Of a stretch of 64,000 bases of DNA, positions 1-64,000 are shown piece by piece. Both the position numbers and the translations under genes were made by a program. This DNA is from Antedon mediterranea. Its lineage: Eukaryota; Animalia; Echinodermata. The stretch spans positions 27,153,648 to 27,217,647 of the forward strand of contig NC_092673.1 in the NCBI RefSeq assembly GCF_964355755.1, given 5' to 3'. Each line of letters opens with the position of its first letter. Positions within the stretch are counted from its first letter, which is position 1. Under the pieces are notes generated by a model. It had not been told where the DNA came from. It worked only from the letters and a program-made list of their open reading frames with translations, and did not search any database.

Positions 1-2338
1 TGCACAACTTCACGTGAATGCCCATATGTTGACAAAGTTATGAAATGTTATGTTTACACGTTTTTGAGATACGCGAGACACAAAAGCAGAGGAAAAATGC
101 GCGTGCGCGCGTAACGTCTTGTAAAACATGCCATTTTTAATCCACAAAAAGTTTGCCCTTGATATGACTTAAATTTTCACAAAGTGTCAAAACAAATTTA
201 TGCTTGGTTTTTAGCCTATGATCAATCATAAAAAATCATAAAATCGCACGTAAGTCACGTTGCGCAACTCTGACGTCATTTAAAAATAGGAGGTGCACAA
301 CTTCACGTAAATGCCCATATGTTGACAAAGTTATGAAATGTTACGTTTACACATGTTAGAGAAACGCTCTACACAAAAATGGAAGGAAAGAAATAAGAAT
401 AATACAGAAAAAAAAATAAACTAGACATGAAACTCGTCACTTTGACGAGTTAGTTATCCGCACGACAAACGCCACGTGCACGTCATACGTTGGAATATTG
501 CACACGGATAAAGATTATGGCATTATGACCTGAACTGAAGAATATCATACGTTTTTAGTGCTGAATTCAGTCTATTTTGTGTCATATAGTATATACATGC
601 AAACAGTATAAATCTGTATACATATTACATACAGTGTAGAATAGGTGAAATTATGGAACCCGCAATTTATTCAAATTTTTAACATGGTTACGGTATCAAA
701 ATGAAACACTAAGATAGCAATTTCGGGAGGAAATTATCTCAGTAAAAACATATTAACGTGTAGAAGAAATTCGAATACGTGAAATATTGATGCGCGTTCT
801 TTTGAATGTAATGAATGATGACGCAAAATATGAAAATACGACATTTTTTATTTAACTGGCCATATGATGACGTCACAACATGCGATTGGCAAAATGTTCA
901 CAGGATTTCGTATCTACAATCCAATAGCTTCCAGAAAATGTTTTAATCGTGATTATCACATTTTATTCTTACGAGCTACAACAGATAAAAATTTACTGTA
1001 AAGATGAAATTAATGACCCACGTAATTAAAATTTTTAGGCATGATGACCTCATAAAAATTTAAATATTTTTAACTTGTGCGAAAGATAGTTGATTTACCT
1101 AGACAATATCAAAATCGGGGTGAAAATGGAAAACTGATAAGTGGCGATGCGTTCTACTAAATGTGATGAGCTATGACGAAAGATACAAAAATCCTAAATT
1201 TTATATTCACGTGGCCATACGATGACGTCACAATGTCCGGTTAGCCATAAAAATACATGATCCGATATCTACAACTCATCAACTTCCAGAATTTGTCATC
1301 CACAAAAAGTTGATCGTGTAGTTTAGAAATTATGACTGTTTAAAAAAAGGCATAATTTTGACAAATTTTTGAACTTTTTCATCAAAAACGCGCGCAAATT
1401 GTCCAATTCGACGTGCTCGTATGACGTAACTTTATGTCAAAATTGTTTAAAAGTTGGTAAAATTACTAGAAAAGGCTGGAAAAATATAAATCACGCAAAA
1501 AAAATATGTTTTTAATGCTACGTGCGCACCACACACGTAAAAATTTGCGCACGCGTTGGAATTTTTGAAATGCTTAAAATGACATGAAACTCGTAGAAAA
1601 TTGATTAGAAATTAATTTTGCGCATTTTAAAATTTTAAATGCGCGTGCACGCGTAACTTTGTGTAAAACACGCAATTTTTTTTTCACAGGAAGTTAGCGC
1701 ATGACACAAATTAAACTTTTGCAAAGTTTCAGTTTAAAATCTTTTATGGTTTTCGATCTATGTTAAATACGCGAAATTCATAAAATCGCACGTAAGTCAC
1801 GTTGCACAACTCTGACGTCATTAAAAAATAGGAGGTGCACAAGTTCACGTAAATGCCCACATGTTGTCAAAGTTATGAAATGTTATGTTTACACATTTTA
1901 GAGAAACGCTCTACACAAAAATAGCGAGAAAGAAAGAAGAATAATACAGAAAAAAATATTGATCCCATACAATAACAAGGAGTTATCCGCCAAGTGCGGA
2001 TAACTAAAAATGATGATCCCATACAATCACAAGGAGTTATCCGCCAAGTGCGGATAACTAATAAAGAAAAAAAAAAAAAGATCCAGGACGATTACAAGGA
2101 GTTATCCGCTACTAAGCGGATAACTAATAATACACAAAAAAAAAAAAAAAATGATGATCCCATACAATCACAAGGAGTTATCCGCCATGTGCGGATAACT
2201 AAAAAAAAAAAAAAAAAAGTAACAGGACGATTACAAGGAGTTATCCGCTACTAAGCGGATAACTAATAATACAGAAAAAAACTGTTGATCTCATACAATA
2301 ACAAGGAGTTATCCGCTTGGTATACCAAGCGGATAACT
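1..2338 (-). mobile_element. Distal end of a nested cluster of non-autonomous Helentron/HINE-like elements: partial unit 1-420, complete unit 421-2005, five extra terminal hairpin caps 2006-2338
   Basis: Same family as 47405-64000. Read on -, the unit has a 5' AGTTATCCGC-loop-GCGGATAACT hairpin, a 3' GCGGATAACT sub-terminal repeat, an AACTCGTCA-aag-TGACGAGTT stem-loop and a CTAG end flanked by TT. This is the DINE-1/HINE architecture. No Rep/helicase ORF. Confidence 0.8.
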
Positions 2339-2633
2339 AAAAAAACTGTAATAGGCATAAAACTATTTATTTGCTGTGTATGTGGTAGCCTTGATTTTAC
2401 TCCAAGGCCTAAATCAATAAAAAGAGCCTCGGCAAATCAATGCCGTGGTAAGCTAGCAGGACCTCGGCATTTACCTCGGCATTGCCGAATGCCGAGGTAA
2501 ATTTCGCGGGCTGCAAGCTTTAAAAAACAGCATGGGACCTTTTTGTTTTCATAATGGACCAACATGTGCGCATGAGAAAAATGAATAATTAAATATGTGT
2601 ATAATCTACAATTTTGTTCTTCAACTTACGTAG

Positions 2634-15319: not shown

Positions 15320-15490
15320 AGCATTATACGGTATATTTTGGAATATACCGTATAATAGCCACAAACGATGGGAATATTTATATATACGGTATATTCTTTA
15401 TGAGACCCGTTTCTGCTGCCAAAAAATATACCGTATATAAAATATACCGTATATATACGGTATATTTTTGGCAGCAGAAACGGGGCCATG
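15320..15490. repeat. Palindromic ATACGGTAT/ATACCGTAT motif repeat (same family as 29340-29700)
   Basis: Hairpin ccgtttctgctgccaaaaaatataccg...cggtatatttttggcagcagaaacgg. The same motifs recur near 29.4-29.7 kb. Confidence 0.65.
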
Positions 15491-29339: not shown

Positions 29340-29700
29340 GAATATATACCGTATAATATCTACAATCAAGATAAATATACATCTGCCAAGTATATACATC
29401 TGCCAAGTATATACCGTATTTACCATATATATATACGGTATATTTTTGGCAGCGGAAGCAGCGGTCACAAAAAATATAACATATTTTCGCTACCAAATTT
29501 GTGGATAAAATACGGTATTTATAACTATATACCGTATTTTGGGTACCCATTTCTGCTGCCAATAAAAAAAAATACCATCTTTTATATTATACCGTATTTT
29601 GAGGATGCAGCAGAAACAGGCCCAATACCCATTTTGCTGCCACAAAAACATACTGTATATAAATGTACCACCTAGGCCTACAGATTACGGTATATTCTTG
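29340..29700. repeat. ATACCGTAT/ATACGGTAT and ttgctgcc/ggcagc motif repeat (family shared with 15320-15490)
   Basis: Multiple direct and inverted copies of these motifs. Confidence 0.6.
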
Positions 29701-32535: not shown

Positions 32536-33641
32536 GGGGTGTCACGAAACCTCAGACCACGAAAGCTCAGACCCCCTAAGACCTAAGATCACGAAAGCTA
32601 AGACCCAACACCTAAGATTACAAATACTAAGATATACTACAGCTTAAAAACAATACTTGTTTATCCATACATAATTTTAAACACAGTAGGTTTCATTTAT
32701 TACCATAAATATAATTTAATACTACCGCAAAACATAGATAAACTCACATTATTTTCGCCCGTTGAGTAAATATAATAATAATAATATTTTTTCTTTACAA
32801 CAAACAAACTTGACGGGTTGTTTGTTGGTATATATTTACTCCATTGTGTTGGTTCAGAGGATGTTTTTCTTACGCACCTGCCTTTCTTGTATTTTGACTC
32901 CAAATTTGTTGACTAACTTTATCCTGAACACCACACTTTAAAATTAGGACTTATAAGTACTTTCAGAAGGAGAAACACATAATAACAAATAAATAAATCC
33001 TTTAAATTGATGATTTTACAGATGTGTTTCTTTGTACTGTATACTGTATGACAATGTAACTCCTCGAGCTCCCAATGCTCAATGTTTTTGTTTCTATGGA
33101 GCGCCAAAAGAGCAACAATAATAGTACAAGTATAAAAACAGAAAGAAAACGAAACAAAAAAACTTATCATGATTTTTAAATTAAAATTTATTTGCCAGTA
33201 TTTATTTCTTCGTACTTGCATGATTATACTATTATCATTACAATTTTAATTTTACATTGTTCCATCCACACTGTAGATGGACTCCACAGAGTTTTCAGCC
33301 CTCTATATAATTTTTGCTCTTTTGACGTTCCATAGAAACAAAAACATTGAACATGGCCCATGGGGTAGGCCTACTGTACTGTAGGCTAGTCATTTTGTGT
33401 GCGAGAAAAACGTCTGTAAAATCATCAATTTAAAAATGTATTTGTTACTTTTTATGTGATTCTTTTTCATGAAAGTGCCAATTCTAAGGTGTGGTATGTA
33501 TTCAGAATAAATGTTGGGAGTTAAAATACAAGGCAGGTGCGAAAGATAAATATTTGTAATCTTAGGTGTTGGGTCTTAGCTTTCGTGATCTTAGGTCTTA
33601 GGGGGTCTGAGCTTTCGTGGTCTGAGCTTTCGTGACACCCC
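32536..33641. mobile_element. Fold-back non-autonomous DNA transposon (MULE- or hAT-like)
   Basis: ~90-bp TIRs GGGGTGTCACGAAA... made of short sub-repeats. Flanking direct repeat TTGTTGAG (8 bp; 10 bp CTTGTTGAGG if the TIR starts GGG). Internal arms (32870-33125 vs 33310-33542) are also inverted. Confidence 0.85.
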
Positions 33642-34784: not shown

Positions 34785-36409
34785 CAAGTTCCCATGAACT
34801 TAAACTCGTCACTTGAGGACGAGTTTGGTTATCCGCCAGCAACAAAGCGTATCTTGCGTATTCAAGTACTTCCAAGTTATGACTTTTCCAAAAAAAGTAG
34901 GCTATTCAAAATTAAAACTGCCCTCTCAGTGTAATAACCAACTAAACCCTTTTAATTAATTGTTTTCCCGTGACGGGACTCGAACCCGGTACCTCTGATA
35001 CCAAAGTCGGTTGCATTACACATCGAGCCATATGACCACCTGCTGACGAAAATCCGAAGAAAGAGTCCTCGTTCATTCGGTATGTCGTGAACCCCCTCGA
35101 TGCAAGTTGATTATTACATATCAAACTTAAATCATAAATTTTACTATGATGAAATCTTCAAAAATTTTAAACGCTGATATTTTATGAAAGTACCTACTTT
35201 CAAGTTTTATATATTAACATGTAAAGAAAAAAGATAAATGTTATGTTTATTGTTTTGCTCTTTGAATAAGTTTATGTTTGTTTGATGATAAATATTTCAA
35301 AAATTATATTTAATATGCAAATAATGTAGCCATCAAACACGTTTTAGCATTCAACACTATAATAAATCAGACCTATGATTCATACACTGCAAGAAATTAA
35401 AATAAAAAATGGGGGTAACCTTGCATTCTGATGAACTGTGTCATTTTTAAAAGTAGACATATTTTGGAACATTTTCACAATTTGTTGACGTTTTCGTGCG
35501 CAACCTGTCATGTTTAACGTGCTCGTAGAACGCCATTTCAAGTTGAAAAGTGAATAAAATAACGTAAAATTGTTAACAGAAGATTTAAAAACACAAATCG
35601 TGTAAAAGAAATGCTCATACCTGTTCCCTGCGCCGTGCGCGCGTAAAAATGTGCGCACCAGTGGCAATTTTTTAAACGCTTAAAATGACCTGAATCGTGC
35701 TCTAATTTAATCAGAAATTGATTTGAAGCATTTTAAAATTCCAAACGCCATTTACGCGCGCACTTTCTAATGTTACAAATTGCGATAGCGTTAAAAAAGT
35801 TAACTATTGATGTGAAGCAAACGTGGCTGAAAATGACGTTAAAAAATATTCATTTGTTTCGAAGTTATAACCAATTTAAGATTTTCAGAAAATCACGCGT
35901 AACTTACGCTACGCGGCTCTGACATCGTCAAAAAGCTTGGCTGGACAACTTCAGTAAAATGTCTATATGTTGAACAAGTTACAAAATGTTATGTTAACGC
36001 GTTACAGAGAAACAGCGTGCACAAATTAGGAGCATTTTAAAATTTCAAACGCAGTTTACGCGCAGACTTTCTAGTGTTCAAAAATTTGCTGAAGAGCGAA
36101 AAAGTTAGCCATTGATGTGAAGAAAACGTGGCTGAAAATTTCGTTAAAAAATATTTATCGGTTTCGAAGTTATGACCGATTTAAGATTTTCAGAAAATCG
36201 CGCGTAACTTACGCTACGCGGATCTGACATTGTCAAAAAGCTTCGCAGTACATCTTCAGTTAATTGTCTATATGTTGACCAAGTTACAAAATGTTATGTT
36301 AACACGTTCAAGAGAAAACGCGTACACAAAATCGGAGAAAGAAAGAAGAATAATAAAAAAAAAAAGTAACACTACAATAACAAAGGTTATCCGCTTGAGG
36401 CGGATAACC
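34785..36409 (-). mobile_element. Diverged solo HINE/Helentron-like element (relative of the nested family) carrying a tRNA-like segment
   Basis: aaactcgtc-acttgag-gacgagttt hairpin plus GGTTATCCGC at 34802-34836. Terminal hairpin GGTTATCCGC-ttgag-GCGGATAACC at 36384-36409. Internal modules are homologous to the array units. Confidence 0.75.
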
Positions 36410-36420
36410 AAAAAAAAAAA

Positions 36421-36535
36421 ATAATAAAGATTTCATACAATAACAATAGGTGATCATTTTATTCTAAATGATCACCTAATAATAAAGATTTCATACAATA
36501 ACAATAGGTGATCATTTTATTCTAAATGATCACCT
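36421..36535. repeat. Two 58-bp tandem hairpin caps (AGGTGATCATTT..AAATGATCACCT)
   Basis: Same catacaataacaa + hairpin + aa layout as the HINE caps, but a different stem sequence. Confidence 0.75.
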
Positions 36536-36850
36536 AATTAGATGAGAAAAGGGTCTATCTATAAGTGACTGAATAAATGGTACTTAAAATTACTAAATAA
36601 TTGCACATAAAATGCAGGTTATAATAAGGACATAAGTATAAATTAGATGAGAAAAGGGTCTATCTATAAGTGACTGAATAAATGGTACTTAAAATTACTA
36701 AATAATTGCACATAAAATGCAGGTTATAATAAGGACATAAGTATAAATTAGATGAGAAAAGGGTCTATCTATAAGTGACTGAATAAATGGTACTTAAAAT
36801 TACTAAATAATTGCACATAAAATGCAGGTTATAATAAGGACATAAGTATA
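36536..36850. repeat. 105-bp perfect tandem repeat x3
   Basis: aattagatgagaaaagggtc...ggacataagtata at 36536, 36641 and 36746. Confidence 0.92.
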
Positions 36851-45710: not shown

Positions 45711-46319
45711 GGTTTTGTCTAATCGCATTACACATCAAAATAATAGGCCGCGCGACCTTACAAAGTGTCAATAAATCACTGGGAAATGTGTCCGATCAAA
45801 TTACTCTCTCATGGTCAAATGAAGTGACTGAATGTTTGAAAATGTGTTTTTCTATAAAATAATAGTAATATCATTTGTTTAACCATGAATAAAAAGAAAA
45901 AGTGATATATCAGCAATTTCAAATCGTAAAAATTGATTAATTCTACGCGAAGTTAGAATTCGTTGAAAAATCACGATTTCAGTGCAGTGGCGTAACAGGC
46001 GGGGGGGGGGGGGGGGGCAGGGGGGGGGGAATACCCCCCTGGCGGATTTTACCGGGTTGAGAAGCGTTCGATCGGGCTGGGTAACAAGTAAAAAAAATAA
46101 AATAAAATACAAAGAAGGGATAGAAGAAAGAAAATATAAGATAAGAATAAAATATACGATATATGATATGGCTTCAAATGAGTCACAGTACAGTATGATA
46201 TTCAAGTAAGATGATATGAAATACACAAAATCCTGACTGACAACTCGTGGGAAGACGCACTGCTTATCAGTACATTAACATGCGGTCAGTTGACTGTGGT
46301 TTTTGGCGTCTTTTATCTA

Positions 46320-47404
46320 AGCCGCCATAAATTATGCTTTAATTTTGAAAAGTCAAATATACTGATAACTGGTAAACGTGTTGATAAAGTAAGACAATGG
46401 AAATTAGGTAATGGCTTTATATCTGAAACTGAATCATATAAATATCTCGGTGTACATATTTCTCGTAAATTAAATGACCATATACAAATTGAGAATGTTA
46501 TAAAAAAAGGTCAAAGATTAATAGCGTACGTTAAATCAATTATCAGTAGCTTTGATAACTTTAACAGAGTATATTATGGGGATACTCTGTGGAGATCGAT
46601 AGTTCTCCCATCTATCAACTATGGTTGTTCAGTATGGTGCTCTTTAAGTAGAATAGATATAGATAAACTAGAGCGTCTCCAGCTCCAAATGGCACGTTAT
46701 ATCTTAAAAGCACCTCGAAATACACCTTGTGCCGCCTTATATGGAGAGCTTGGTTGGTCTCCAATTAACGAGATTCATAACGCTCTTCGTATGAAATACT
46801 TCCATAGAATTATAAAGATGGAAAATTATCGATGGCCAAAAATTATGTTTATTGGAATGCTACAACTTAATTGTGAATTTAAAGACTTAAGGTATAAGTT
46901 TCTATCTTGTATAAACGATATTCTCTTGAAGTGTAATTGTGAATCCAAAAATATTTTCACCACTCTCTCAAATTATAAAGAAGTCTACTTTCCAATTTCT
47001 GAAATCTTAAGAAAACTTAACTATATAATGATAGATGAATGGAGAATTGAATTACAAAATAAATCAAGTCTCCACATCTATGAAACATTAAAATCAAAAC
47101 CTGGACTTGAAAATTACTTAATTGATAAAACTAATTTTGAAGGTGCTGCATTAAAATTTAAAGCTCGTTCAAATACTCTACCTTTGAATGATAGAACTGC
47201 AAATTGGAATATTGATAATAATAAAAAATGTAAATTGTGCGGTACAAATTCGGACGAAGACATCCATCATTTCATCCTTAATTGTCCAGCTTTAAATAAT
47301 ATACGTAATCAGGAATTATTTAATTTATATGTGGATATGTATAGAAATGGCAGCAAAGATATGTTTGATACTTTTTATACTTCTCCTGAAAATGACAAAC
47401 TTAA
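46320..47404 (+). mobile_element. 5'-truncated non-LTR retrotransposon ORF2 (RT thumb + CCHC zinc motif; RTE-X-like, clade uncertain), interrupted by the HINE nest
   Basis: YKYLGVHI, LERLQLQMARYIL, ALYGELGW and CKLCGTNSDEDIHHFILNC. The ORF stop codon is supplied by the CTAG of the inserted element at 47405. Confidence 0.88.
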
Positions 47405-50400
47405 CTAGACATGAAACTCGTCACTTTGACGAGTTAGTTATCCGCACGACAGATGCCACGTGCACGTCATACGTTAAAAACTATAATAAGAGGTGGTCCT
47501 GTATTTTCGCCTTGTATTATAATTATACAGTACACTGTGTATAAAAGGAGACATTAATTCTACATGATACAGAGGGCGGCAAACAACAATTTGCTCACAT
47601 CAGAGACTATGCTGGTGTACATTGTACTACTGTACTGTATATTATATGACATATTAACTGAATTATGGGACCTGCCTTTAATTCAAATATTTAACATGAT
47701 GACGTCATAAAAAAAACAACACAACGATAGCAATTTCTGAAGAAAATTATCTTAGCAACAACATATTAACGTGTAGAAGAAATTTGAATACGTAAAATGT
47801 TGGTGCGCGCACATTTAAATGTGATGAACTATTACGCAAAATATGAAAATACGACTTTTTTTATTCAACTGGCAATATGATGACGTCACAACATCCGATT
47901 GGCAAAATGTTTACATGAATTCGTATCTACAATCCTATAGCTTCCAGAAAACGTTTTAATCGTGATTATCACATTTTATTCTTACGAGCTATTACAGATT
48001 AAAATTTACTGTAAAGATGAAATTAATGACCCACGTAATTAAAATTTTTAGGCATGATGACGTTATAAAAATTTAAATATTTTTATCTCATGCTAAAGAA
48101 AGTTGATTGACCTAGACAATATATAAATATAGGAGAAAAAGGAATACAGATAAGCGTGATGCGCTCCATTGAATGTGATGAGCAATAACGAAACAGACAA
48201 AAATCCTATATTTTACATTCGTGTGGCCATACGATTACGTCACAATGTTTTTTTAGCCTTATCGATGCATGATCCGATATCTGCAACTCATCAACTTCTA
48301 GATTTTGTAATAAAAATAAACGGTTCACGGTTTACTTTAGAAACTATGACTGTTTAAAAAAAGACATTATTTTGATGATTTTTTAAGCTTTTTCATAAAA
48401 AACGCGCACAAATTGTCTAATTCAACGTGTTCGTATGGCGTTATTTAAACTGGAAAAGTTCTAAATTGTTTTCAAAATTACTAGGAAAGGCTTGAAAAAT
48501 ATAATTCAAGAGAAAAAAATATGTTTTTATCGCTACGTGCGCACCGCGTGCGTAAAAAATTGCGCGCCCGTGGGAATTTTTGACATGCTCAAAATGACAT
48601 GAAACGCGTAAAAAGTTGGATAGAAATTAATTTTGCGCATTTTGAAATTTTAAATGCGCGTGCGCGCGTAACTTCTTGTGAAACATGCCATTTTTAATCC
48701 GTAGAAAGTTTGCCCCTGATATGACTTAAATTTTGTCAAAGTGTCAATACTAAATGACTTTTGGTTTTTAATCTATGATCAATCATTGAAATTCATAAAA
48801 TTGCGCGTAAGTCACGTTGCGCAACTATGACGTCATTCAAAAATAGGAGGTGCACAACTTCACGTAAATGCCCATATGTTGTCAAAGTTATGAAATGTTA
48901 TGTTTACACATTTTAGAGAAACGCGATCCACAAAAAGGAAGGAAGGAAAGAAGAACTAGACATGAAACTCGTCACTTTGACGAGTTAGTTATCCGCTCGA
49001 CAAACGCCACGCGCACGTCATACGTTAGAATATTGCACACAGAGAAATATTAAGGCATTATGACCTGAACTGAAGAATATGATATGTTGTTATTTCTGAA
49101 TTCTGTTATTTTGTGTCATATAGTATACACAGTACAATCTGTATACATATCACAAACAGTGTAAAATAGGTGAAATTACGGGACCCGTATTTTATTGTAA
49201 TTTTTAACATCTTGACGGTTTCAAAATGAAATGCAAAAGTAGAAATTTCAGAATGAAATTATCTCAGCAACAACATATTAACGTGTAGAAGAAATTTGAA
49301 TACTTGAAATATTGATGCGCGCTCTTTTAAATGTAATGAAATATAACGCAAAAGATGAAAATACGACTTTTTGTATTTAACTTGCCATATGATGACGTCA
49401 CAACATTCGATTGGCACAATTTTCACATGATTTTGTATCTACAATACAATAGCTTCCTGAAAACGTTTTAATCCTGATTATCACATTTTATTCTTACGAG
49501 CTATAACAGATTAAAATTTACTGTAAAGATGAAATTAATGACCAACGTAATTTAAATTTTTAGGCATGATGACGATAAAAAAATTAAAAAATGTTTAATT
49601 CATGCAAAAGATAGTTGATTGACCTAGAATATATTAAAATCGGGGTGAAAATCGACTACGAATAAGTGGAGATGCGCTCTATTAAATGTGATGAGCTATG
49701 ACGAAAGAGACAAAAATCCTATATTTTATATTCGCGTGGCCATACGATGACGTCACAATGTCCGGTTAGCCATATTAATGCATGATTCGATATCTACAAC
49801 TCATCAACTTCCAGAATATGTAATTAAAAAAAAGTTCTCCATGTAGTTTAGAATCTATGACTGTTTAAAAATAGGCATAATTTTGACGAATTTTTGAACT
49901 TTTTCACCAGAAACGCGTGCAAATTATTTAATTCGACGTGCTCGTATGACGTAATTTTAAGTCGAAATTGTTTAAAGGTTGGTAACATTACTATAAAAGG
50001 CTGAAAAAACATGAATCACGCGAAAAAAATATGTTTTTAACTCTAAGTGTGCACCGCGTGCGTAAAAAGTTTCGCGCGCCTGGGAATTTTTGACATGCTC
50101 AAAATGACATGAAACGCATAGAAAGTTGATTAGAAGTTGATTTTTCGCACTCTAAAATTTTAAACGCGCGTGCGCGCGTAACTTTTTGTGAAACATGCTA
50201 TTTTTAATCCATAGGAAGTTTGCGCTTGATGTGACTTAAATTTTCACAAAGTGTCAAAACAAAATTATGTTTCGTTTTTAGTCTATGATCAATCATTGAA
50301 ATTCATAAAATCGCGCACAAGTCACGTTGCGCAACTCTGACGTCATTCAAAAATAGGAGGTGCACAAGTTCACGTAAATGTCGATATGTTGACAAAGTTA

Positions 50401-53400
50401 CGATATGTTCTGTTTACACATTTTAGAGAAACGCGATCCACAAAAAGGAAGGATGGAAAGAAGAACTAGACATGAAACTCGTCACTTTGACGAGTTAGTT
50501 ATCCGCTCGACAAACGCCACGCGCACGTCATACGTTAGAATATTGTACACAGAAAAATATTAAGGCATTATGACCTGAACTGAAGAATATGATATGCTGT
50601 TATTAGTGCTGAATTCTGTCAATTTTGTGTCATATAGTATATACATGCAAACAGTATAATCTGTATACATATTACATACAGTGTAGAAAAGGTGAAATTA
50701 CGGGACCCGCCATTTATTCCAATTTTTAACATGGCGACGGTATCAAAATGAAACACTTAGATAGCAATTTCAGAAGGAAATTATCTCAGGAACAACATAT
50801 TAACGTGTAGAAGAAATTTGAATACGTAAAATATAGATGCGCACCCTTTTAAATGTGATGAACTATTACGCAAAATATGAAAATACGTCTTTTTTTATTC
50901 AACTGGCCATATGATGACGTCCCAACATCCGATTGGCAAAATGTTTACATGAATTCGTATCTACAATCCAATAGCTTCCAGAAAACGTTTTAATCGTGAT
51001 TATCACATTTTATTCTGATGAGCTATAACAGATTAAAATTCACTGTAAAGATAAATATAAGTGACCCACGTTATTTATATTTTTAGACATTATGACGTCA
51101 TAAAAATAAAAAAATGTTTACTCTTGCGTAAGATAGTTGATTGACCTAGAAAATTTCAAAATCTGGGTTAAAATGGAATACGGATAAGTGGAGAGGTGCT
51201 CTATTAAATGAGATGCGCTATGACGAAAGATACAAAAATCCTATATTTTATATTCGCGTGGCCATACGATGACGTCACAATGTCCCGTTTGCCATATCAA
51301 TGCATGATTCCTTATCTACAACTTATCATCTTCCTGGATATGTAATTTAAACAAAGTTCACCTCGTAGTTTAGAATCTATGATTGTTTAAAAAAAGGTAT
51401 AATTTTGACAAATGTTTGAACTTTTTCCTCAAAAACGCACATAAATTATCCAATTCGACGTGCCCGTATGACGTAATTTGAAGTCGAAATTGTTTCAAAG
51501 TTGGTAAAATTACTATAAAAGGCTTGAAAACATAAATCACGAGAGAAAAATGGTTTTCAACGCTACGTTCGCACCGCGCGCGTAAAAAAAAGCGCGCGCG
51601 TGGGAATTTTTTACATGCTTAAAATGACATGAAACACGTAGAAAGTTGATTAGAAATTGATTTTTCGCATTTTGAATTTTAAATTAGCGTGCGCGCGTAA
51701 CTTTGTGTAAAACACGCAATTTTTTATCCACAGAAAGTTAGCGCATGATATAAATTAAACTTTTGCTAAGTTTCAATTTAAATTGTTATATGGTTTTAAA
51801 TCTATGTTAAATACGCGAAATTCATAAAATTGTGCGTAAGTCACGTTGCGCATTTCTGACGTCATTCACAATAGGAGGTGCACAACTTCACGTGAATGCC
51901 CATATGTTGACAAAGTTATGAAATGTTATGTTTACACGTTTTTTAGATACGCGAGACACAAAAATAGAGGAGAAATGCGCGTGCGCGCGTAACGTCTTGT
52001 AAAACATGCCATTTTTAATCCACAAAAAGTTTTCCCTTGATATGACTTAAATTTTCACAAAGTGTCAAAACAAATTTATGCTTGGTTTTTAGTCTATGAT
52101 CAATCATAAAAAATCATAAAATCGCACGTAAGTCACGTTGCGCAACTCTGACGTCATTCAAAAATAGGAGGTGCACAACTTCACGTAAATGTCCATATGT
52201 TGACAAAGTAATGAAATGTTATGTTTACAAGTTTTTGAGATACGTGAGACACAAAAATGAGGGAGAAAGAAATAAGAAAAACTAGACATGTAACTCGTCA
52301 CTTTGACGAGTTAGTTATCCGCACGACAAACGCCACGTGCACGTCATACGTTAGAATATTGCACACAGAAAAAATTATGGCATTATGACCTGATCTGAAG
52401 AATATGATATGTTGTTAGTGCTGAATTCTGTCAATTTTGTGTCATATAGTATATACATGCAAACAGTATAATCTGTATACATGTTACATACAGTGTAGAA
52501 TAGGTGAAATTACGGGACCCGCCATTTATTCAAATTTGTAACATGGCGACGGTATCAAGATGAAACACTAAGATAGCAATTTCGGAAGCAAATTATCTCA
52601 GCAACAACATATTAACGTGTAGAAGAAATTTGAATACGTTTAATATTGATGCGCGCTCTTTTAAATATAATGAACTATGATGCAAAAGATGAAAATACGA
52701 CTTTTTTTATTTAACTTGCAATATGATGACGTCACAGCATCTGATTGGCAAAATGTTCACATGATTTCATATCTACAATCCAAGAGCTTCCAGAAAATGT
52801 TTTAATCGTGATTATCACATTTTATTTTGACGGGCTATTACAGATTAAAATTTACTGTAAAGATGAAATTAATGACCCACGTAATTAAAATTTTTAGGCA
52901 TGATGACGTCATAAAAATTAAAATATTTTTATCTCATGCGAAAGATAGTTGATTGACCTAGACAATATTAAAATCTCGGAGAAAAAGAAATACGTATAAG
53001 CGTGATGCGCTCCATTGAATGTGATGAGCAATAACGAAAGACAAAAAAATCCTATATTTTACATTCGTGTGGCCATATGATGACGTCACAACATCCGTGA
53101 GGTAAAAATTCTGCATGAATTCATATCTACAACATATCTGCTTACATATTAAGTTAAAAAAATTAGGGGTAATCGTTGATCCTGAGAAGCTATAAAACAT
53201 TCAAAATAGGCATAATTTTGACAACATTTTGTAACTTTTTCAACTAAAACGCGCGCAAATGGGCTAAATCAACGTGTTCGTATGACGTAATTTTAATTTG
53301 AAATGATGTCAATCTTTTTGAAAATGACTAGGAAAGGCTGGAAAATCACAATTCAAGAGAAAAAAACATGATTTTCATGCTCTATGCGCACCGTGCGCGT

Positions 53401-56400
53401 AATATTTTTCGCGCGCGCGGTAATTTTGTACATGCTTAAAATGACATGAAACGCGTAGAAAGTTGATTAGAAATTATTTTTGCGCATTTTGAAATTTTAA
53501 ATGCGCGTGCGCGCGTAACTTCGTGTAAAACACGCAATTTTTTTCAAACAGAAAGTTAGCGCATGATATAAATTAAACTTTCACAAAGTGTCAATTAAAA
53601 ATCACTTTTAGTTTTTAATCTATGATCAATCATAAAAAATCATAAAATCGCGCGTAAGTCACGTTGCGCAACTCTGACGTAATTCAAAAATAGGAGGTGC
53701 ACAACTTCACGTAAATGCCCACATGTTGTCAAAGTTATAAAATGTTATGTTTACACATTTTAGAGAAACGCTCTACACAAAAATAGCGAGAAAGAAAGAA
53801 GAATAATACAGAAAAAAATATTGATCCCATACAATAACAAGGAGTTATCCGCCAAGTGCGGATAACTAACTAGACATGAAACTCGTCACTTTGACGAGTT
53901 AGTTATCCGCTCGCGACAAACGCCACGTGCACGTCATACGTTGGAATGTTGCACACAGAAAAGATTATGGCATTATGACCTGAACTGAAGAATATGATAC
54001 GTTGTTAGTGCTAAATTCTGTCTATTTTGTGTCATATAGTATATACATTTTAAAGTACACAGTATAACACCTAATTTAAATTTTTAGGCATGATGATGTC
54101 ATAAAAATTAAATATTTTTAACACATGCATAAGATAGTTGATTGACCTAGACAATATTAAAATCTCGGAGAAAAAGGAATACAGATAACGGTGATGCGCT
54201 CCATTTAATGTGAGGAGCAATAATGAAAGAGACAAAAATCATATATTTTACATTCGTGTGACCATACGATGACGTCACAATGTCCGGTTAACCATATTGA
54301 TTAATGATCCGATATCTACAACTCATCACCTTCCAGAATATGTAAGTAAAAAAAAGTTTACCTCGTAGTTTAGAATCTATGATTGTTTAAAAAAAGGCAT
54401 AATTTTGACGAATTTTTGAATTTTTTCATTAAAAACACGCACAAATTGTACAATTCGACGTGCTCGTATGACGTAAGTTTAAGTCTAAATTGTTTTAAAA
54501 GTTGATAAAATTACTATAAAAGGCTGAAAAAACATAATTCATGCAAAAAAGATGTTTTTAGCGCTACGTGCGGACCACGCGCGCAAGATTGTTAGCGCGC
54601 GTGGGAATTTTTGACATGCTCAAAATGTCATGATCAGCGTAGAAAGTTGATTAGAAATTAATTTTGCGCATTTTAAATTTTAAATGCGCGTGCGCGCGTA
54701 ACTTCGTGTAAAACATGCCATTTTTAGTGCACAAAAAGTTAGCGCAAGATATAAATTAAACTTTTGCTAAGTTTCAATTTAAATTGTTATATGGTTTTCA
54801 ATCTATGTTAAATACGCGAAATTCATAAAATCTCGCGTAAGTCACGTTGCGCATTTCTGAGGTCATTCACAATAGGAGGTGCACAACTTCACGTGAATGC
54901 CCATATGTTGACAAAGTTATGAAATGTTATATTTACACGTTTTTGAGATACGCGAGACACAAAAATGGAGGAGAAATGCGCGTGTGCACGTAAACTTCTT
55001 GTAAAACATGCCATTTTTAATCCATAGAAAGTTTGCCCTTGATATGACTTAAATATTCACCAAGTGTCAATACAAAATGACTTTTATTTTTTATCCTATG
55101 ATCAATCAATGAAATTCAAAAAATCGCGCGTAAGTCACGTTGCGCAACTCTGACGTCATTAAAAAATAGGAGGTGCACAACTTCACGTAAATGTCCGTAT
55201 GATGACAAAGTTATGAAATGTTATGTGTACAAGTTTTTGAGATACGCGAGACACAAAAATGGAGGAGAAAGAAAGAAGAATAATACTAGACATGAAACTC
55301 GTCACTTTGACGAGTTAGTTATCCGCACGACAAACGCCACGTGCACGTCATACGTTGGAATATTGCACACCGAAAAAGATTATGTCATTATGACCTGAAC
55401 TGAAGAATATGATGTGTTGTTAGTACTGAATGCTGTATATTTTCTGTCATATAGTATACACAGTATAATCTGTATGCATGTCACAAACAGTGTAAAATAG
55501 GTGAAATTACGGGACCCGTATTTTATTTTAATTTTCAAAAGGAAACGCGAAGGTACAGTAGTAATTTCGGAAGAAAAGTATCTCAGCAACAACATATTAA
55601 CGTTTAGAAGAAATTTGAATACGTGAAATATTAATGCGCGCTTTTTTAAATGTAATGAACTATGACGCAAAAGATGAAAATATGACTTTGTTTATTTAAC
55701 TGGCCATATGATGACGTCACAACATCTGATTGGCAAAAAGTTTACATGATTTCGTATCTACAATCCCATAGCTTCCTGAAAACGTTTTAATCGTGATTAT
55801 CACATTTTATTCTTACGAGCTATAACAGATTAAAATTTACTGTAAAGATGAAATTAATGACGCTGTTAATTAAAATTTTTAGGCATGGTGACGTCATAAA
55901 AATTAAAATATTTTTAACTCATGCGTAAGATAGTTGATTGACCTAGACAATATTAAAATCTCAGAGAAAAAGGAATACAGATAGGCGTGATGCGCTCCAT
56001 TGAATATGATGAGCAATAACGAAAGAGACAAAAATCCTATATTTTACATTCGTGTGGCCATACGATGACGTGACGTCACACAATGTCCGGTTAGCCATAT
56101 TGATTCATGATCCGATTTCTACAACTCATCAACTTCCAGAATATGTAATTAAAAAAAAGTTCACCTCGTTGTTTAGAATCTATGACTTTTTAAAAAAAGG
56201 CATTATTTTGAAGAATTTTTTAACTTTTTCATTAAAAATGCGCGCAAATTGTACAATTCGACGTGCTCGTATGACGTAATTTTAAGTCGAAATTGTTAAA
56301 AAATTGGTAAAATTACTATAAAAGGCTGGAAAAACATAATTCATGCAAAAAAAACGTCTTTAGCGCTACGTGCGCACCGCGCGTGTAAAATTTTTCGCGC

Positions 56401-59400
56401 GCTTGGGAATTTTTGACATGCTCAAAATGTCATGATCAGCGTAGAAAGTTGATTAGAAATTAATTTTGCGCATTTTGAAATTTTAAATGCGTGTGCGCGC
56501 GTAACTTCTTGTAAAACATGCCATTTTTAATCCACAAAAAGTTTGCCCTTGATATGACTTAAATTTTCACTAATTGTCAAAATAAAATTATGCTTGGTTT
56601 TTAGTCTATGATCAATCATAAAAAATCATAAAATCGCGCGTAAGTCACGTTGCGCAACTCTGACGTCATTCAAAAATAGGAGGTGCACAACTTCACGTAA
56701 ATGTCCATATGCAGACAAAGTTATGAAATGTTATGTTTTCAAGTTTTTGAGATACGTGAGCCACAAAAATGAGGGAGAAAGAAAGAAGAAGAACTAGACA
56801 TGAAACTCGTCACTTTGACGAGTTAGTTATCCGCTCGACAAACGCCACGTGCACGTCATACGTTAGAATATTGCACACAGAAAAATATTAAGGCATTATG
56901 ACCTGAACTGAAGAATATGATATGTTGTTATTTATGAATTCTGTTATTTTGTGTCATATAGTATACACAGTACAATCTGTATACATATCACAAACAGTGT
57001 AAAATAGGTGAAATTACGGGACCCGTATTTTATTGTAATTTTTAACATCTTGACGGTTTCAAAATGAAATGCAAAAGTAGAAATTTCAGAATAAAATTAT
57101 CTCAGCAACAACATATTAACGTGTAGAAGAAATTTGAATACGTGAAATATTAATGCGCGCTCTTTTAAATGTAATGAAATATAACGCAAAAGATGAAAAT
57201 ACGACTTTTTTTATTTAACTGGCCATATGATGACGTCACAACATTCAATTGGCACAATTTTCACATGATTTTGTATCTACAATACAATAGCTTCCTGAAA
57301 ACGTTTTAATCGTGATTATCACATTTTATTCTTACGAGCTATAACAGATTAAAATTTACTGTAAAGATGAAATTAATGACCAACGTAATTTAAATTTTTA
57401 GGCATGATGACGTTAAAAAAATTAAAAAAATTTTAATTCATGCAAAAGATAGTTGATTGACCTAGAATATATTAAAATCGGGGTGAAAATGGACAACGAA
57501 TAAGTGGAGATGCGCTCTATTAAATGTGATGAGCTATGACGAAAGAGACAAAAATCCTATATTTTATATTCGCGTGGCCATACGATGACGTCACAATGTC
57601 CGGTTAGCCATATTTATTAATGATCCGATATCTACAACTCATCACCTTCCAGAATATGTAAGTAAAAAAAAGTTCTCCACGTAGTTTAGAATCTATGATT
57701 GTTTAAAAAAAGGCATAATTTTGACGAATTTTTGAATTTTTTCTTTAAAAACACGCACAAATTGTATAATTCGACGTGCTCGTATGACGTAATTTTAAGT
57801 CTAAATTGTTTTAAAATTTGATAAAATTACTATAAAAGGCTGGAAAGACATAATTCACGCAAAAACAGATGTTTTTAGCGCTACGTGCGGACCACGCGCG
57901 TAAAATTGTTCGCGCGCGTGGGAATTTTTGACATGGTCAAAATGTCATGATCAGCGTAGAAAGTTGATTAGAAATTAATTTTGCGCATTTTAAATTTTAA
58001 ATGCGCGTGCGCGCGTAACTTCGTTTAAAAAATGCCATTTTTAGTGCACAAAAAGTTAGCGCAAGATGTAAATTAAACTTTTGCTAAGTTTCAACTTACA
58101 TAGTTATATGGTTTTCAATCTATGTTGAATACGGGAAATTCATAAAATCACGCGTAAGTCACGTTACGCATTTCTGACGTCATTCACAATAGTAGGTGCA
58201 CAACTTAACGTGAATGCCCATATGTTGACAAAGTTATGAAATGTTATGTTTACACATTTTTGATATAAGCGAGACACAAAAATAGAGGAGAAATGCGCGT
58301 GCGCGAGTAATGTCTTGTAAAACATGGCATTTTTAATCCACAAAAAGTTTGCCCTTGATATGACTTAAATTTTCAGAAAGTGTCAAAATAAAATTATGCT
58401 TGGTTTTTAGCCTATGATCAATCATAAAAAATCATAAAATCGCACGTAAGTCACATTGCGCAACTCTGACGTCATTCAAAATAGGAGGTGCACAACTTCA
58501 CGTAAATGCCCATATGTTGACAAAGTTATGAAATGTTATGTTTACAAGTTTTTGAGATACGCGAGACACAAAAATGGAGGAGAAAGAAAGAAGAATAATA
58601 TAAAGAAAAAAAAAAAGATCCAGGACGATTACAAGGAGTTATCCGCTACTAAGCGGATAACTAAAAAAAAGTAACAGGACGATTACAAGGAGTTATCCGC
58701 TGAATGCGGATAACTAACTAGACATGAAACTCGTCACTTTGACGAGTTAGTTATCCGCTCGACAAACGCCACGTGCACGTCATACGTTAGAATATTGCAC
58801 ACAGAAAAATATTAAGGCATTATGACCTGAACTGAAGAATATGATATGTTGTTATTTCTGAATTCTGTTATTTTGTGTCATATACATAGTATACACAGTA
58901 CAATCTGTATACATATCACAAACAGTGCAAAATAGGTGAAATTACGGGACCCGTATTTTATTGTAATTTTTAACATCTTGACGGTTTCAAAATGAAATGC
59001 AAAAGTAGAAATTTCAGAATGAAATTATCTCAGCAACAACATATTAACGTGTAGAAGAAATTTGAATACGTGAAATATTGATGCGCGCTCTTTTAAATGC
59101 AATGAAATATAACGCAAAAGATGAAAATACGACTTTTTGTATTTAACTGGCCATATGATGACGTCACAACATTCGAATGGGACAATTTTTACATGATTTT
59201 GTATCTACAATACAATAGCTTCCTGAAAACGTTTTAATCGTGATTATCACATTTTATTCTTACGAGGTATAACAGATTAAAATTTACTGTAAAGATGAAA
59301 TTAATGACCAATGTAATTTAAATTTTTAGGCATGATGACGTTAAAAAAATTAAAAAATTTTTAATTCATGCAAAACATAGTTGATAGACCTAGAATATAT

Positions 59401-62400
59401 TAAAATCGGGGTGAAAATGAACAACGAATAAGTGGAGATGCGCTCTATTAAATGTGATGAGCTATGACGAAAGAGACAAAAATTCTATATTTTATATTCG
59501 CGTGGCTATACGATGATGTCACAATGTCCGGTTAGCCATATTAATGCATGATTCGATATCTACAACTCATCAACTTCCAGAATATGTAATTAAAAAAAAG
59601 TTCTCCACGTAGTTTAGAATCTATGACTGTTTAAAAATAGGCATAATTTTGACGAATTTTTGAACTTTTTCACCAGAAACGCGTGCAAATTATTTAATTC
59701 GACGTGCTCGTATGACGTAATTTTAAGTCGAAATTGTTTAAAAGTTGGTAACATTACTATAAAAAGCTGAAAAAACATAAATCACGCGAAAAAAATATGT
59801 TTTTAACGCTACGTGTGCACCGCGTGCGTAAAAAGTTTCGCGCGCGTGGGAATTTTTGACATGCTCAAAATGACATGAAACGCATAGAAAGTTGATTAGA
59901 CGTTGCTTTTTCGCACTCTAAAATTTTAAACGCGCGTGCGCGCGTAACTTTTTGTGAATGATGCTATTTTTAATCCATAGAAAGTTTGCGCTTGATGTGA
60001 CTTAAATTTTCACAAAGTGTCAAAACAAAATTATGTTTGGTTTTTAATTTATGATCAATCATTGAAATTCATAAAATCGCGCGTAATTCACGTTGCGCAA
60101 CTGTGACGTCATTCAAAAATAGGAGGTGCACAAGTTCACGTAAATGTCGATATGTTGACAAAGTTACGATATGTTCTGTTTACACGTTTTAGAGAAACGC
60201 GACGCACAAAAATGACAGAAGGAAAGAAGTATAATACAGAACTAGATTTGAACTCGTCACTACGGACGAGTTAGGTTATCCGCATCGCAAAAGCCACGCG
60301 CACGTCGTACGTTAGAATATTGCGCGCAGAAAAACGATTATGCCATTGAAAAAAATGTTAGTGCGCCCTCTATTTTGCGTCGCCTCTAAGTATACGGTAT
60401 AACACTATGTACTGAATACGTACTACATACAGTGCAGAATAGGTGAAAATAAGTGACCAAAGTTATTAACGCTTTTGAACATGATGACGTCATCACAATT
60501 TTTAAAATGGTGAATCGTGCGAAAGATAATTGATTGACCTAGACAATATAAAAAAAATGGGAGAAAATAGAATACGGATAAGTGGAGTTGCGCTCTATTT
60601 AATGTAACGAGCTATGAAGAAAGAGACAAAAATCCTATATTTTATATTCGAGTGGCCATACGATGACGTCATAAGGTCCGGTTAGCCATTTTGATGCATG
60701 ATTCGATATCTGCAACTCATCTACTACCAGAATATGTAATTATAAAAAAGTTCACCACGTAGTTTAGAATCTATGACAGTTTAAAAAAAGGCATAATTTT
60801 GACAAATTTTTGAAATTTTTCTTCAAAAATGCGCGCAAATTGTTTAATTCTACGTGCTCGTATGACGTGATTTTAAGTCGAAATTGATTTAAAATTGATA
60901 AATGTACTAGAAAAGGCTGAAAAAACAAAAATCAAGCAAAAAAAAGATGTTTTTGCGCTACGTGCGCACGCGCGCGTAAAAAAATTGCGCACGCGTGGGA
61001 ATTTTTGAAATGCTCAAAATGACATGAAACGCGTAGAAAGTTGATTAGAAATTGAATTTTCGCATTTTGAAATTTTAAACGCTCGTGCGCGCGTAACTTT
61101 TTGGAAAAGTGCCATTTTAAATCCATAGAAAGTTAGCGCATGATATAAATTACACTTTTGCCAAGTTTCAATTAAAATTGCTTTTTGGTTTTCAACCTAT
61201 GTTAAATACGCAAAATTCACAAAATTGCGCGTAACTTACGCTGCGCGACTCTAAAGTCAAAAAACGAGACGTCCTGCACATCTACAGCTACAGGTCAATC
61301 TTATGAAAAAGTTACACAATCTTCTGTTTGCCAGAATTTGAGATATGCGACCAACAAAATTCGTGGAAAGAAAGAAGAACATAGAAAAAAAAAGATCCTG
61401 ACAATAACAAGGGGTTATCCGCCAAGTGCGGATAACCAACTAGATTTGAACTCGTCACGTTGACGAGTTAGGCTATCGCCCAACGCATCGTAACACGAGC
61501 ATGTTATTTATTATGCTTAGTCTATAGGCTGCACTACAACGATTGTAACGAACAGCTGGAATGCATCAAAATCGTTCAGTAAGTGTCAACAGTTGACGGT
61601 ATTAGCATTGTAAACGGTTTAGTTGACGGTTATTTTTTATTTTACACCACTCACGTTTATTCAATTGTTTGAAAATGATGACCTTTTCAAATTAAAAAAA
61701 AAGTTCATAAGTCTAAAGAGGAATTGTTTTAGTAATAGAATATTGAAAATTGGAAGAAAATTGATAACGTTTACGCGGTATGCGCTCTATTGAATGTGAC
61801 GAACTGTGTCGAAAGAGACAAAATCGCTATATTTTACATTTGTGTGGCCATACGATGACGTCACAACAGCCCAGAGGTAAAAATTTTGAATGAATTCATA
61901 TCTACAACATATCTGCTTACATATTAAGTTAAAAAAATTGGGGGTCACCAGACATCCCGGCGAGCTATAATCGATTCAAAATAGGCATATTTTTACACAA
62001 ATTTGCATAAAATTACCAATTTTCAAGCGCACGATTTTTAAAGTTTGACGTGCACGTGTGTCATTATTTTGCATTCATAATTCATCAAATGTGAAAGAAA
62101 TATATCATAAAACTATGAAAAACAATAATCAAGCCCAAAAACGGGCTTTCTATGCTGCGTACGAGCGAAGTGCGCAAAAGCGCGCGCGCAACGCAAATTT
62201 TTTTGAAAAATGTGAAATGCTTAAAATGTCCTGAAACGTGTAGAAAGTTGATTAGAAATTGATTTTGAGCATTTTTAACTTTCAAAGCGCGCGTACGCGC
62301 GATTTGACCAATGTTCAAAATTTTGCTGATGATACAGGAAGATGACCCTTGACATGAAGCATACGTGTTTCAAGTGGTATTTAAAAATAGCTATTGGTTT

Positions 62401-64000
62401 TCAAGTTATAGTCAATCTAAGAATTTCAGAAAATCGCGCGTAGTTACGCTACGCGACAATATTTTCATTAAACCAAAGTGTGTTGCACAACTACATATAT
62501 ACGTGCATCTGCTGGCCAAGTTACAACATAACTGCTACCGCCGTTTTTGAGATCTGCTGCGCACAAAAATTGAGCAGAAAAAATGAAATTTGTGACAATA
62601 AATATAGGCTATCGCTCTACAGAGAGCGATAGCCTAAAAAAAAAAAAAATATGATGAAACAGGACGATTACAAGGAGTTATCCGCTACTAAGCGGATAAC
62701 TAACTAGACATGAAACTCGTCACTTTGACGAGTTAGTTATCCGCTCGACAAACGCCACGTGCACGTCATACGTTACAATATTGCGCACAGAAAAATATTA
62801 AGGCATTATGACCTGAACTGAAGAATATGATATGTTGTTATTTCTGAATTCTGTTATTTTGTGTCATATAGTATACAGAGTACAATCTGTATACATATCA
62901 CAAACAGTGTAAAATAGGTGAAATTACGGGACCCGTATTTTATTGTAATTTTTAACATCTTGACGGTTTCAAAATGAAATGCAAAAGTAGAAATTTCAGA
63001 ATGAAATTATCTCAGCAACAACATATTAACGTGTAGAAGAAATTTGAATACGTGAAATATTGATGCGCGCTCTTTTAAATGTAATGAAATATAATGCAAA
63101 AGATGAAAATACGACTTTTTTTATTTAACTGGCCATATGATGACGTCACGACATTCAATTGGCACAATTTACACATGATTTTGTATCTACAATACAATAG
63201 CTTCCTGAAAACGTTTTAATCGTGATTATCACATTTTATTCTTACGAGGTATAACAGATTAAAATTTACTGTAAAGATGAAATTAATGACCAACGTAATT
63301 TAAATTTTTAGGCATGATGACGTTAAAAAAATTAAAAAAATTTTAATTCATGCAAAAGATAGTTGATTGACCTAGAATATATTAAAATCGGGGTGAAAAT
63401 AGACAACGAATAAGTGGAGATGCGCTCTATTAAATGTGATGAGCTATGACGAAAGAGACAAAAATCCTATATTTTATATTCGCGTGGCCATACGATGACG
63501 TCACAATGTCCGGTTACCCATATTAATGCATGATCCGATATCTACAACTCATCAACTTCCAGAATATGTAATTAAAAAAAAGTTCTCCATGTAGTTTAGA
63601 ATCTATGACTGTTTAAAAATAGGCATAATTTTGACAAATTTTTGAACTTTTTCACCAAAAACGCGTGCAAATTATGTAATTCGACGTGCTCGTATGACGT
63701 AATTTTAAGTCGAAATTGTTTAAAAGTTGGTAACATTACTAGAAAAGGCTGAAAAAACATAAATCACGCGAAAAAAATATGTTTTTAACGCTACGTGTGC
63801 ACCGCGTGCGTAAAAATTTTCGCGCGCGTGGGAATTTTTGACATGCTCAAAATGACATGAAACGCATAGAAAGTTGATTAGAAGTTGATTTTTCGCATCC
63901 TAAAATTTTAAACGCACGTACGCGCGTAACTTTTTGTGAAACATGCTATTTTTAATCCATAGAAAGTTTGCGCTTGATATGACTTAAATTTTCACAAAGT
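47405..64000 (-). mobile_element. Nested cluster of at least 11 non-autonomous Helentron/HINE-like elements (1.2-1.9 kb each)
   Basis: CTAG ends at 47405, 48956, 50466, 52282, 53870, 55286, 56794, 58718, 60242, 61440 and 62704. Hairpin caps end at 53867, 58662, 58715, 61437, 62635 and 62701. All copies share one orientation and sit at A-rich (TT on -) sites. Confidence 0.85.

What the first reader, a model, noticed from the sequence alone, without database searches (positions are those of the whole stretch)
47405..64000. Self-targeting Russian-doll nest of Helentron-like elements whose ends match like nested brackets
Seen: 11 same-orientation units (A-K), but only some are followed by their terminal hairpin cap. 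Uncapped units stop abruptly inside the A-rich tract just before the cap, where the next unit begins with (a)CTAG. Displaced caps reappear downstream in last-in-first-out order. G closes at 58662, then an orphan cap (58663-58715) continues F, which was cut at 56793. I and J close themselves, then an orphan cap (62636-62701) continues H, which was cut at ...aatacagaa 60241. E, H, J and K are inserted immediately after a cap (aact|aa|ctag or aacc|aa|ctag). Established: Helentrons/HINEs (DINE-1 type) have subTIRs, a 3' stem-loop, TT targets and no TSD. Inference: insertion is directed to within a few tens of bp of the element's own 5' hairpin, a homing or safe-harbour mechanism that builds satellite-like blocks by serial nesting rather than by rolling-circle concatemerisation. 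Neighbouring units are diverged subfamilies, which concatemers would not produce.
Basis: partly seen in the sequence, partly recalled or inferred. Interest (0 to 1): 0.85.

Follow-up and report, generated by a model that had tools for sequence, protein, structure and literature searches.

The report
Rolling-circle transposons nested behind own heads
Eleven small protein-less transposons, likely of the rolling-circle (Helentron) kind, lie one inside another in a block of over 16 kb, most likely because each landed in the T-rich stretch just behind a resident copy's front-end hairpin; such self-insertion was already proposed in fungi, and here the nested stage survives intact.

Summary
There are 11 same-facing units, four closed and six cut, with K running off the window, plus two displaced caps at the stated coordinates. 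They have HINE (non-autonomous Helentron) anatomy on the minus strand: 5'-TT with a subTIR hairpin, a T-rich tract, then a 3' subTIR, stem-loop and CTAG.

Nesting is supported three ways. Public contigs hold the H-tail/O2-cap joint at about 5-6 times single-copy depth. A second nest end at 1-2340 carries five more orphan caps that restart where tails get cut. The LINE frame under unit A lacks about 44 C-terminal residues.

Three corrections. Junctions A|B and B|C share about 180 nt at 98%, so one is likely a copy of the other, and G is a chimera: recombination also shaped the block. The 5' tract is often the T-richest site of an element, so the poly-T preference described for Helentrons may replace hairpin 'homing'. 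Self-insertion near the 5' end is already published for Fusarium Helitron2-type elements. Downstream closure and the autonomous partner could not be tested because no genome is held.

The parts
46335..47404 (+). 3' part of a LINE ORF2, cut by unit A (start approximate)
   Evidence: zf-RVT E=1.3e-7. 22 of 27 relatives that align to the last residues run on for 30-60 aa, median 44. A full-length relative has endonuclease and RT domains.
47405..48955 (-). Unit A, outermost; 5' cap missing, cut in the T-rich tract
48956..50465 (-). Unit B; H/K-type body with an A-type last ~53 nt; cap missing
50466..52281 (-). Unit C; B-type first ~128 nt, duplicated ~292-nt module; cap missing
52282..53869 (-). 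Unit D, complete (5'-TT hairpin to CTAG-3'); subTIRs match 13 of 13
53870..55285 (-). Unit E; internal deletion, duplicated ~293-nt module; cap missing; abuts D's 5' end
55286..56793 (-). Unit F body, cut at 56793
56794..58664 (-). Unit G, complete but chimeric (B/H/K-type first 800 nt at about 98%, then 86%; E-like beyond)
58665..58717 (-). Orphan cap O1, by position the 5' end of F
   Evidence: Tail-to-O1-type joints occur in contigs, but the exact F form is not among the listed rows.
58718..60241 (-). Unit H body, cut at 60241
60242..61439 (-). Unit I, complete, diverged subfamily with its own subTIR variant at both ends (12 of 13)
61440..62637 (-). Unit J, complete, distant family with a different subTIR; about 19-28 times single-copy depth in contigs
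62638..62703 (-). Orphan cap O2, the 5' end of H
   Evidence: Joint 60239 to 62636 in contigs, depth 1304 (X7) and 299 (X8).
62704..64000 (-). Unit K, runs off the window; 96-97% identical to H
1..420 (-). Second nest: end of body X, cut at 420
421..2007 (-). Second nest: complete unit Y inside X
2008..2340 (-). Second nest: stack of five orphan caps (hairpins 2035, 2100, 2176, 2239, 2307), then unrelated DNA
34786..36537 (-). Diverged relative Z: one 3' end, its own cap and two identical caps with another subTIR (left boundary approximate)

Best explanation
The block is a nest of HINE-type (likely non-autonomous Helentron/HLE2) elements on the minus strand, most likely built by repeated insertion of new copies, with no clear target duplication, before a T in or at the edge of the T-rich tract that each resident copy carries within about 70 nt of its 5' hairpin, and likely reworked afterwards by recombination between units. 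Each landing inside the tract separates the resident's cap from its body; each landing at the resident's 5' junction adds a complete unit in front. Every newcomer brings a fresh tract, so the process would feed itself, keep one orientation and pile caps at the far end in reverse order. Shown: the anatomy, the junction sequences, the intact H+O2 type elsewhere, and the cut LINE frame. Inferred: the order of events, mobilisation in trans by an unseen Rep/Helicase partner, and that the attraction is mainly the described poly-T preference, perhaps helped by local effects.
For: All 12 of 12 3' junctions read CTAG then T (11 TT), and all 15 of 15 5' junctions begin TT. SubTIR variants co-vary between the two ends in 6 of 6 closed units, 12-13 of 13 matches, and O2 carries H's variant, not I's or J's. 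The joint 60239 to 62636 is among the 15 listed of 378 and lies at 4.6 and 6.4 times single-copy depth. The seven cut points and seven restart points fall into complementary classes. Tail-to-head and cap-to-cap joints at several other positions occur in contigs of organism B, and the E|F type also in one contig of organism A. The LINE frame lacks about 44 residues. The four contexts with both sides in the window have 14-16 T in 20 nt. The model matches Chellapan 2016, Fig. 7.
Against: A|B and B|C differ at only 2 of 60 nt left and 2 of 120 nt right, unlike any other of the 66 junction pairs, so insertion alone does not explain the block. The exact F+O1 form was not among the joints listed, and O1 would also rejoin plausibly to E, giving a Z-like end. 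The listed tail and cap joints have only 19-41 nt on the shorter side, at 85% likeness, and the tables are truncated. The four organism-B runs are one sample and hold 51-68% of the words, so this array itself was not confirmed in reads. Four junctions are equally a head-to-tail join.
Confidence: 0.75

Rival explanations
1. True homing: transposase bound at a resident 5' hairpin or subTIR recruits the incoming circle, so landing depends on the hairpin and not only on T-richness. This is a variant of the best explanation that differs in the targeting step.
For: 15 of 18 landings seen in the window lie at element 5' tracts, although 43 kb of other DNA has 91 clusters with T>=14 of 20 and 34 with T>=15; rough binomial P 5e-10 and 5e-5. 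Four landings are exactly at a 5' junction. T-rich body sites in D and I are unused.
Against: If events are collapsed to 5 of 8, P is 0.004 at T>=14 and 0.11 at T>=15. The window was picked for its nest, and selection against flank insertions is not modelled. J and Z sit beside caps with other subTIRs, so it is not recognition of the element's own sequence. Helraiser (HLE1) showed no local hopping in 701 events.
Confidence: 0.3
2. Much of the block arose by copying ready-made nests or junctions (read-through or composite rolling-circle transposition, unequal exchange, gene conversion) from only a few true self-insertions.
For: A|B is nearly identical to B|C; G, B and C are mosaics. The E|F-type junction stands at 22-32 times single-copy depth, and a tail-to-head joint with an extra C at about 4 times. 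Z has one 3' end and three caps, the product drawn in Chellapan Fig. 7.
Against: Only 1 of 66 junction pairs is alike on both sides; cut points fall in at least four classes; neighbours are 58-90% alike; many joints are single-copy and differ from each other. The high-depth contig has only 19 nt of generic tail, so a recurrent hotspot fits too.
Confidence: 0.2
3. Rolling-circle concatemer of 5'-truncated copies, with caps multiplied separately by local duplication.
For: Four junctions are precise head-to-tail joins; K and H are 96-97% alike; caps at 2006-2281 score as two 139-nt repeats at 94%; the two caps after Z are identical.
Against: Neighbours are diverged; orphan caps restart at positions complementary to the cuts; O2 matches H across two foreign units.
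Confidence: 0.05
4. Mis-assembly of dispersed repeats.
For: No read or contig spanning the array was available.
Against: The closest units compared differ by at least 11 of 800 nt; the junction types exist in read-derived contigs; the junctions obey one base-level rule.
Confidence: 0.03

Closest known systems
HINE / DINE-1 non-autonomous Helentrons (Thomas, Vadnagara & Pritham 2014, PMC4067079; parts 1-2 of 8 and passages read)
   Same: Non-coding; subTIRs; an inverted repeat at the 5' end; 3' stem-loop; T-rich targets; no clear target duplication; internal tandem module in some copies.
   Different: 1.2-1.9 kb, with a CTAG 3' end, which that paper reports for proto-Helentron-Pi (5'-TT and CTAG-3'). 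No autonomous partner found. The parts read mention clustering of related insertions but not deep nests with stacked caps.
Fusarium FoHeli (Helitron2-type) with multiple 5' termini (Chellapan et al. 2016, PMC5148889, sections 10 and 16 and passages; Nat Commun 2026, PMC13342296, passages)
   Same: Self-insertion 31-85 nt inside the 5' end is proposed to make stacked 5' termini (up to five in TR4). One copy lies 2 bp upstream of another's 5' end. Three tandem copies in Metarhizium were read as possible double insertion into a 5' end.
   Different: There the stacked ends mostly sit on a single body. Here bodies and caps are both kept, with at least 11 units over 16 kb, several subfamilies, and a probable animal host.
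Maize Helitrons with multiple termini (PMC3288121, passages) and Xenopus HelenXT233 with two left ends (PMC11417382, section 18 and passages)
   Same: Extra termini, explained by nesting in the maize paper; maize Helitrons are reported to insert near each other.
   Different: Maize elements are canonical HLE1. The Xenopus section reports two left ends without proposing nesting.
Oyster Cg_HINE (PMC7492417, passages) and rolling-circle tandem arrays (PMC12001565, passages)
   Same: HINE architecture; Helitron-related tandem blocks.
   Different: Those arrays are internal repeats or short runs of similar monomers, not nests of diverged units with displaced ends.

Membership tests
HINE / non-autonomous Helentron (HLE2) | Short subterminal inverted repeats (11-18 nt) at both ends | tested here: met
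   12-13 of 13 matches in 6 of 6 closed units; the 3' copy lies 28-30 nt from the end (39 in Z, whose boundary is uncertain).
HINE / non-autonomous Helentron (HLE2) | 5' hairpin overlapping the subTIR and a 3' stem-loop after the 3' subTIR | tested here: met
HINE / non-autonomous Helentron (HLE2) | Insertion into TT or T-rich sequence | tested here: met
   T follows CTAG in 12 of 12 and TT in 11 of 12; the base before the 5' TT is T in 6, A in 5 and the G of an upstream element in 4 of 15.
HINE / non-autonomous Helentron (HLE2) | No target-site duplication | tested here: inconclusive
   The 5' TT pairs with the 3' subTIR and E|F has a single T, which favours TT being part of the element, but a 1-2 nt duplication inside T runs cannot be excluded.
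HINE / non-autonomous Helentron (HLE2) | No coding capacity | tested here: met
   No frame of 120 aa or more within the units; no Rfam match in 46000-64000.
Helentron proper (versus Helitron2) | Autonomous partner with the same termini encoding Rep/Helicase plus AP endonuclease | not testable with these tools
   No genome held; no such frame among the window's 17 long frames; pattern scans of metagenome and prokaryote contigs gave 0.
Canonical Helitron (HLE1) | 5'-TC start, no terminal inverted repeats | tested here: not met
   Starts TT and has subTIRs; only the CTAG-3' end is shared.
Rolling-circle concatemer | Near-identical adjacent copies joined head to tail | tested here: not met
   Neighbours 58-90% identical; K/H is the only possible pair.

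The most novel reading that the evidence does not exclude
An animal HLE2 family homes to resident 5' hairpins of its own and of related families, because transposase bound there captures the incoming circle. It builds self-feeding, single-orientation nests of tens of kilobases across the genome as a safe harbour and as a source of chimeric subfamilies: a route to repeat blocks distinct from concatemerisation.
Probability: 0.3. Interest if true: 0.65.

Novelty: new variant of a known kind. Interest (0 to 1): 0.4.

Why it matters
HLE2 target choice has, to my knowledge (recalled, not searched exhaustively), not been worked out biochemically. Nests like this record many landings at base resolution and keep the intermediate that the Fusarium self-insertion model predicted, so poly-T preference versus hairpin-guided landing becomes testable by counting in one good assembly. 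They would also explain how multi-capped and chimeric subfamilies arise, and why such blocks get annotated as satellites or truncated copies. The basic behaviour is published, and two earlier unchecked notes of this scan describe it in other genomes, so it looks like a recurring habit of HLE2 elements rather than a discovery unique to this locus.

Tried and rejected
No whole genome is held, so extension beyond 64000, genome-wide distances and the partner search were impossible. A degenerate 3'-end pattern found 0 matches in metagenome and prokaryote contigs. Rfam gave 0 matches. Earlier notes by place and by sequence gave nothing.

The share of copies that sit next to another copy could not be got from contigs: tables are truncated and summed depth is not copy number. 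The missing LINE tail has no convincing match in the window (best E=0.003 at 29% identity). The second protein search was not needed for the elements, which code for nothing.

A motif-only null (A/T then T, at least 5 T in 8 nt) made the 5' bias look overwhelming (about 1e-8 to 1e-9). I rejected it as too lax once 20-nt T-richness showed the 5' tract to be the top site in G and Y. The inputs of the binomial test (20 tracts; 2-40 body clusters) are rough.

Nine literature searches showed no paper on deep HINE nests with stacked caps in an animal. The library lacks most subscription papers, I read passages only, and no supplements were opened; Chellapan's Table S6 and Figs S11-S13 may hold closer cases.

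Full report
Observation. The region 47405-64000 holds eleven same-facing units. Nine heads match one 20-nt motif; the heads of I and J are variants, read from the sequence and printed. Perfect terminal hairpins follow D, G, I and J, and two further hairpins (O1 58691-58715, O2 62676-62701) have no body in front of them. A, B, C, E, F and H end in the A-rich tract; K runs off the window.

What the units are. On the minus strand a closed unit reads 5'-TT, subTIR hairpin, T-rich tract, body, reverse subTIR, stem-loop, CTAG-3'. The subTIR differs between subfamilies, and the two ends agree in 6 of 6 closed units in the window (12-13 of 13 nt). No unit has a frame of 120 aa or an Rfam match. This is the HINE/DINE-1 layout of Thomas et al. 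2014 (PMC4067079, parts 1-2 read) and the HLE2 definition of HELIANO (PMC11417382, passages). The autonomous partner could not be sought because no genome is held, so Helentron versus Helitron2 stays open. The host is probably an animal (inference from the LINE and a calponin-repeat exon at 2634-2849).

Junction rule. All 12 of 12 3' junctions read CTAG then T, 11 of them TT. All 15 of 15 5' junctions start TT; the base before is T in 6, A in 5, and the G of an upstream element in 4. Cuts lie within about 70 nt of the 5' end. The seven cut points and the seven orphan-cap restarts in the window fall into complementary classes, which is what insertion into a tail produces.

Tests of nesting. (1) The rejoined H+O2 type exists intact elsewhere. 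The joint 60239 to 62636, differing only in A-run length, is one of 15 listed of 378 joints, at depth 1304 in X7 and 299 in X8 and not seen in X9 or X10; that is 4.6 and 6.4 times my single-copy estimate. O2 carries H's subTIR, not I's or J's. (2) For F+O1 the result is weaker: tails running straight into an O1-type cap exist (5.5 times single copy in X8), but the exact F form is not among the listed rows, and O1 would also fit E. (3) The window starts inside a second nest: X is cut at 420, Y is complete, and five orphan caps follow before unrelated DNA at 2340. This is the far end that the model predicts, though those bodies lie outside the window. (4) The LINE frame under A has a zf-RVT domain, and 22 of 27 relatives aligning to its last residues continue 30-60 aa (median 44; 2 of 27 do not continue), so A interrupts it. 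(5) Tail-to-head and cap-to-cap joints at other positions occur in organism B contigs, and the E|F type also in one contig of organism A. Caveats: these joints have 19-41 nt on the shorter side, the tables are cut, and the four organism-B runs are one sample holding 51-68% of the words, so this array itself is unconfirmed in reads.

Not a simple concatemer. Neighbours are 58-90% alike, whereas B, H and K are 97% alike. The four cap-then-head junctions do, however, have the sequence of a head-to-tail join, and K/H could be a tandem dimer later split by I and J.

Junctions A|B and B|C differ at 2 of 60 nt on the left and 2 of 120 nt on the right, share private variants on both sides, and diverge beyond; no other of the 66 pairs does this. 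One is likely a copy of the other, by conversion or exchange. G matches B/H/K at about 98% for 800 nt and 86% afterwards. The E|F junction type stands at 22-32 times single-copy depth, either a hotspot or amplification. So recombination or block copying adds to insertion, and the number of independent landings is below ten.

Why there? The four target contexts with both sides in the window have 14-16 T in 20 nt. All T>=15 sites of G and all T>=14 sites of Y lie in the first 90 nt, D and I have a few body sites as rich, J has none in its first 90 nt, and the opposite strand has almost none. A steep poly-T preference, proposed for Helentrons by Thomas et al., thus explains position and orientation within most elements. 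It explains less well why 15 of 18 landings in the window are at element tracts when the flanks offer 91 clusters at T>=14: rough P 5e-10, or 5e-5 at T>=15, but 0.004 to 0.11 if events are collapsed to 5 of 8, with window selection and purifying selection unmodelled. J and Z sit beside caps with other subTIRs, so any homing is not to the element's own sequence. Helraiser, an HLE1, showed no local hopping (PMC4778049, passages). I put hairpin-guided homing at about 0.3.

Prior art. Chellapan et al. 2016 (PMC5148889; sections 10 and 16 and passages) report FoHeli copies repeating the first 31-85 nt and explain them by self-insertion. They note a copy 2 bp upstream of another's 5' end and a Metarhizium triple. 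A 2026 paper finds up to five 5' termini (PMC13342296, passages). Maize multiple termini are ascribed to nesting (PMC3288121, passages), and Xenopus HelenXT233 has two left ends. Element Z in this window, with one 3' end and three caps, resembles the composite of Chellapan's Fig. 7. Nine searches showed no description of deep nests with bodies and caps both kept in an animal; the library is partial and no supplements were read. Two unchecked notes of this scan describe similar nests in other genomes; I treat them as leads only. I also read passages of PMC4224331, PMC7492417, PMC12628747, PMC12001565 and bioRxiv 10.1101/2025.11.06.686955.

Verdict. The feature is real and mostly correctly read: a deep, well-preserved case of a published HLE2 behaviour, with homing unproven. 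Novelty: new variant of a known kind. Interest 0.4.

Noticed in passing
window 1-2340: End of a second nest of the same family and orientation, 45 kb away, with six stacked hairpins, about 300 nt before a calponin-repeat exon (2634-2849, PF00402 E=7.6e-15).
   Followed up: yes
window 34786-36537: Diverged HINE Z followed by two identical 58-nt caps with a different subTIR; that subTIR occurs nowhere else between 2400 and 47300. It is followed by three identical 105-nt repeats (36536-36850).
   Followed up: partly
window 34960-35060: A short stretch inside Z looks by eye like a tRNA-derived segment in reverse orientation; recalled resemblance, not tested.
   Followed up: no
window 27250-28660: Array of a 21-nt near-palindromic unit in direct and inverted blocks, with 500-nt arms 93% complementary.
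   Followed up: no
window 6179-7291: 273-nt inverted arms, 99% complementary and 567 nt apart, overlapping a LINE-like frame at 6832-7254 that had no Pfam match.
   Followed up: no
window 23119-24009: Another LINE RT fragment (RVT_1 E=5e-4, below the curated cut-off).
   Followed up: no
window 32540-33640: 15-nt repeat arrays at 32543-32617 and 33559-33635 appear by eye to be inverted copies bounding an element of about 1.1 kb.
   Followed up: no
window 9525-9824, 18580-19914, 31244-31712: A perfect 149-nt duplication, a 366-nt array and 120-nt and 36-nt arrays.
   Followed up: no
window 15323-15469 and 29409-29540: Related hairpins sharing a short core motif at two distant places, possibly ends of another element family.
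   Followed up: no
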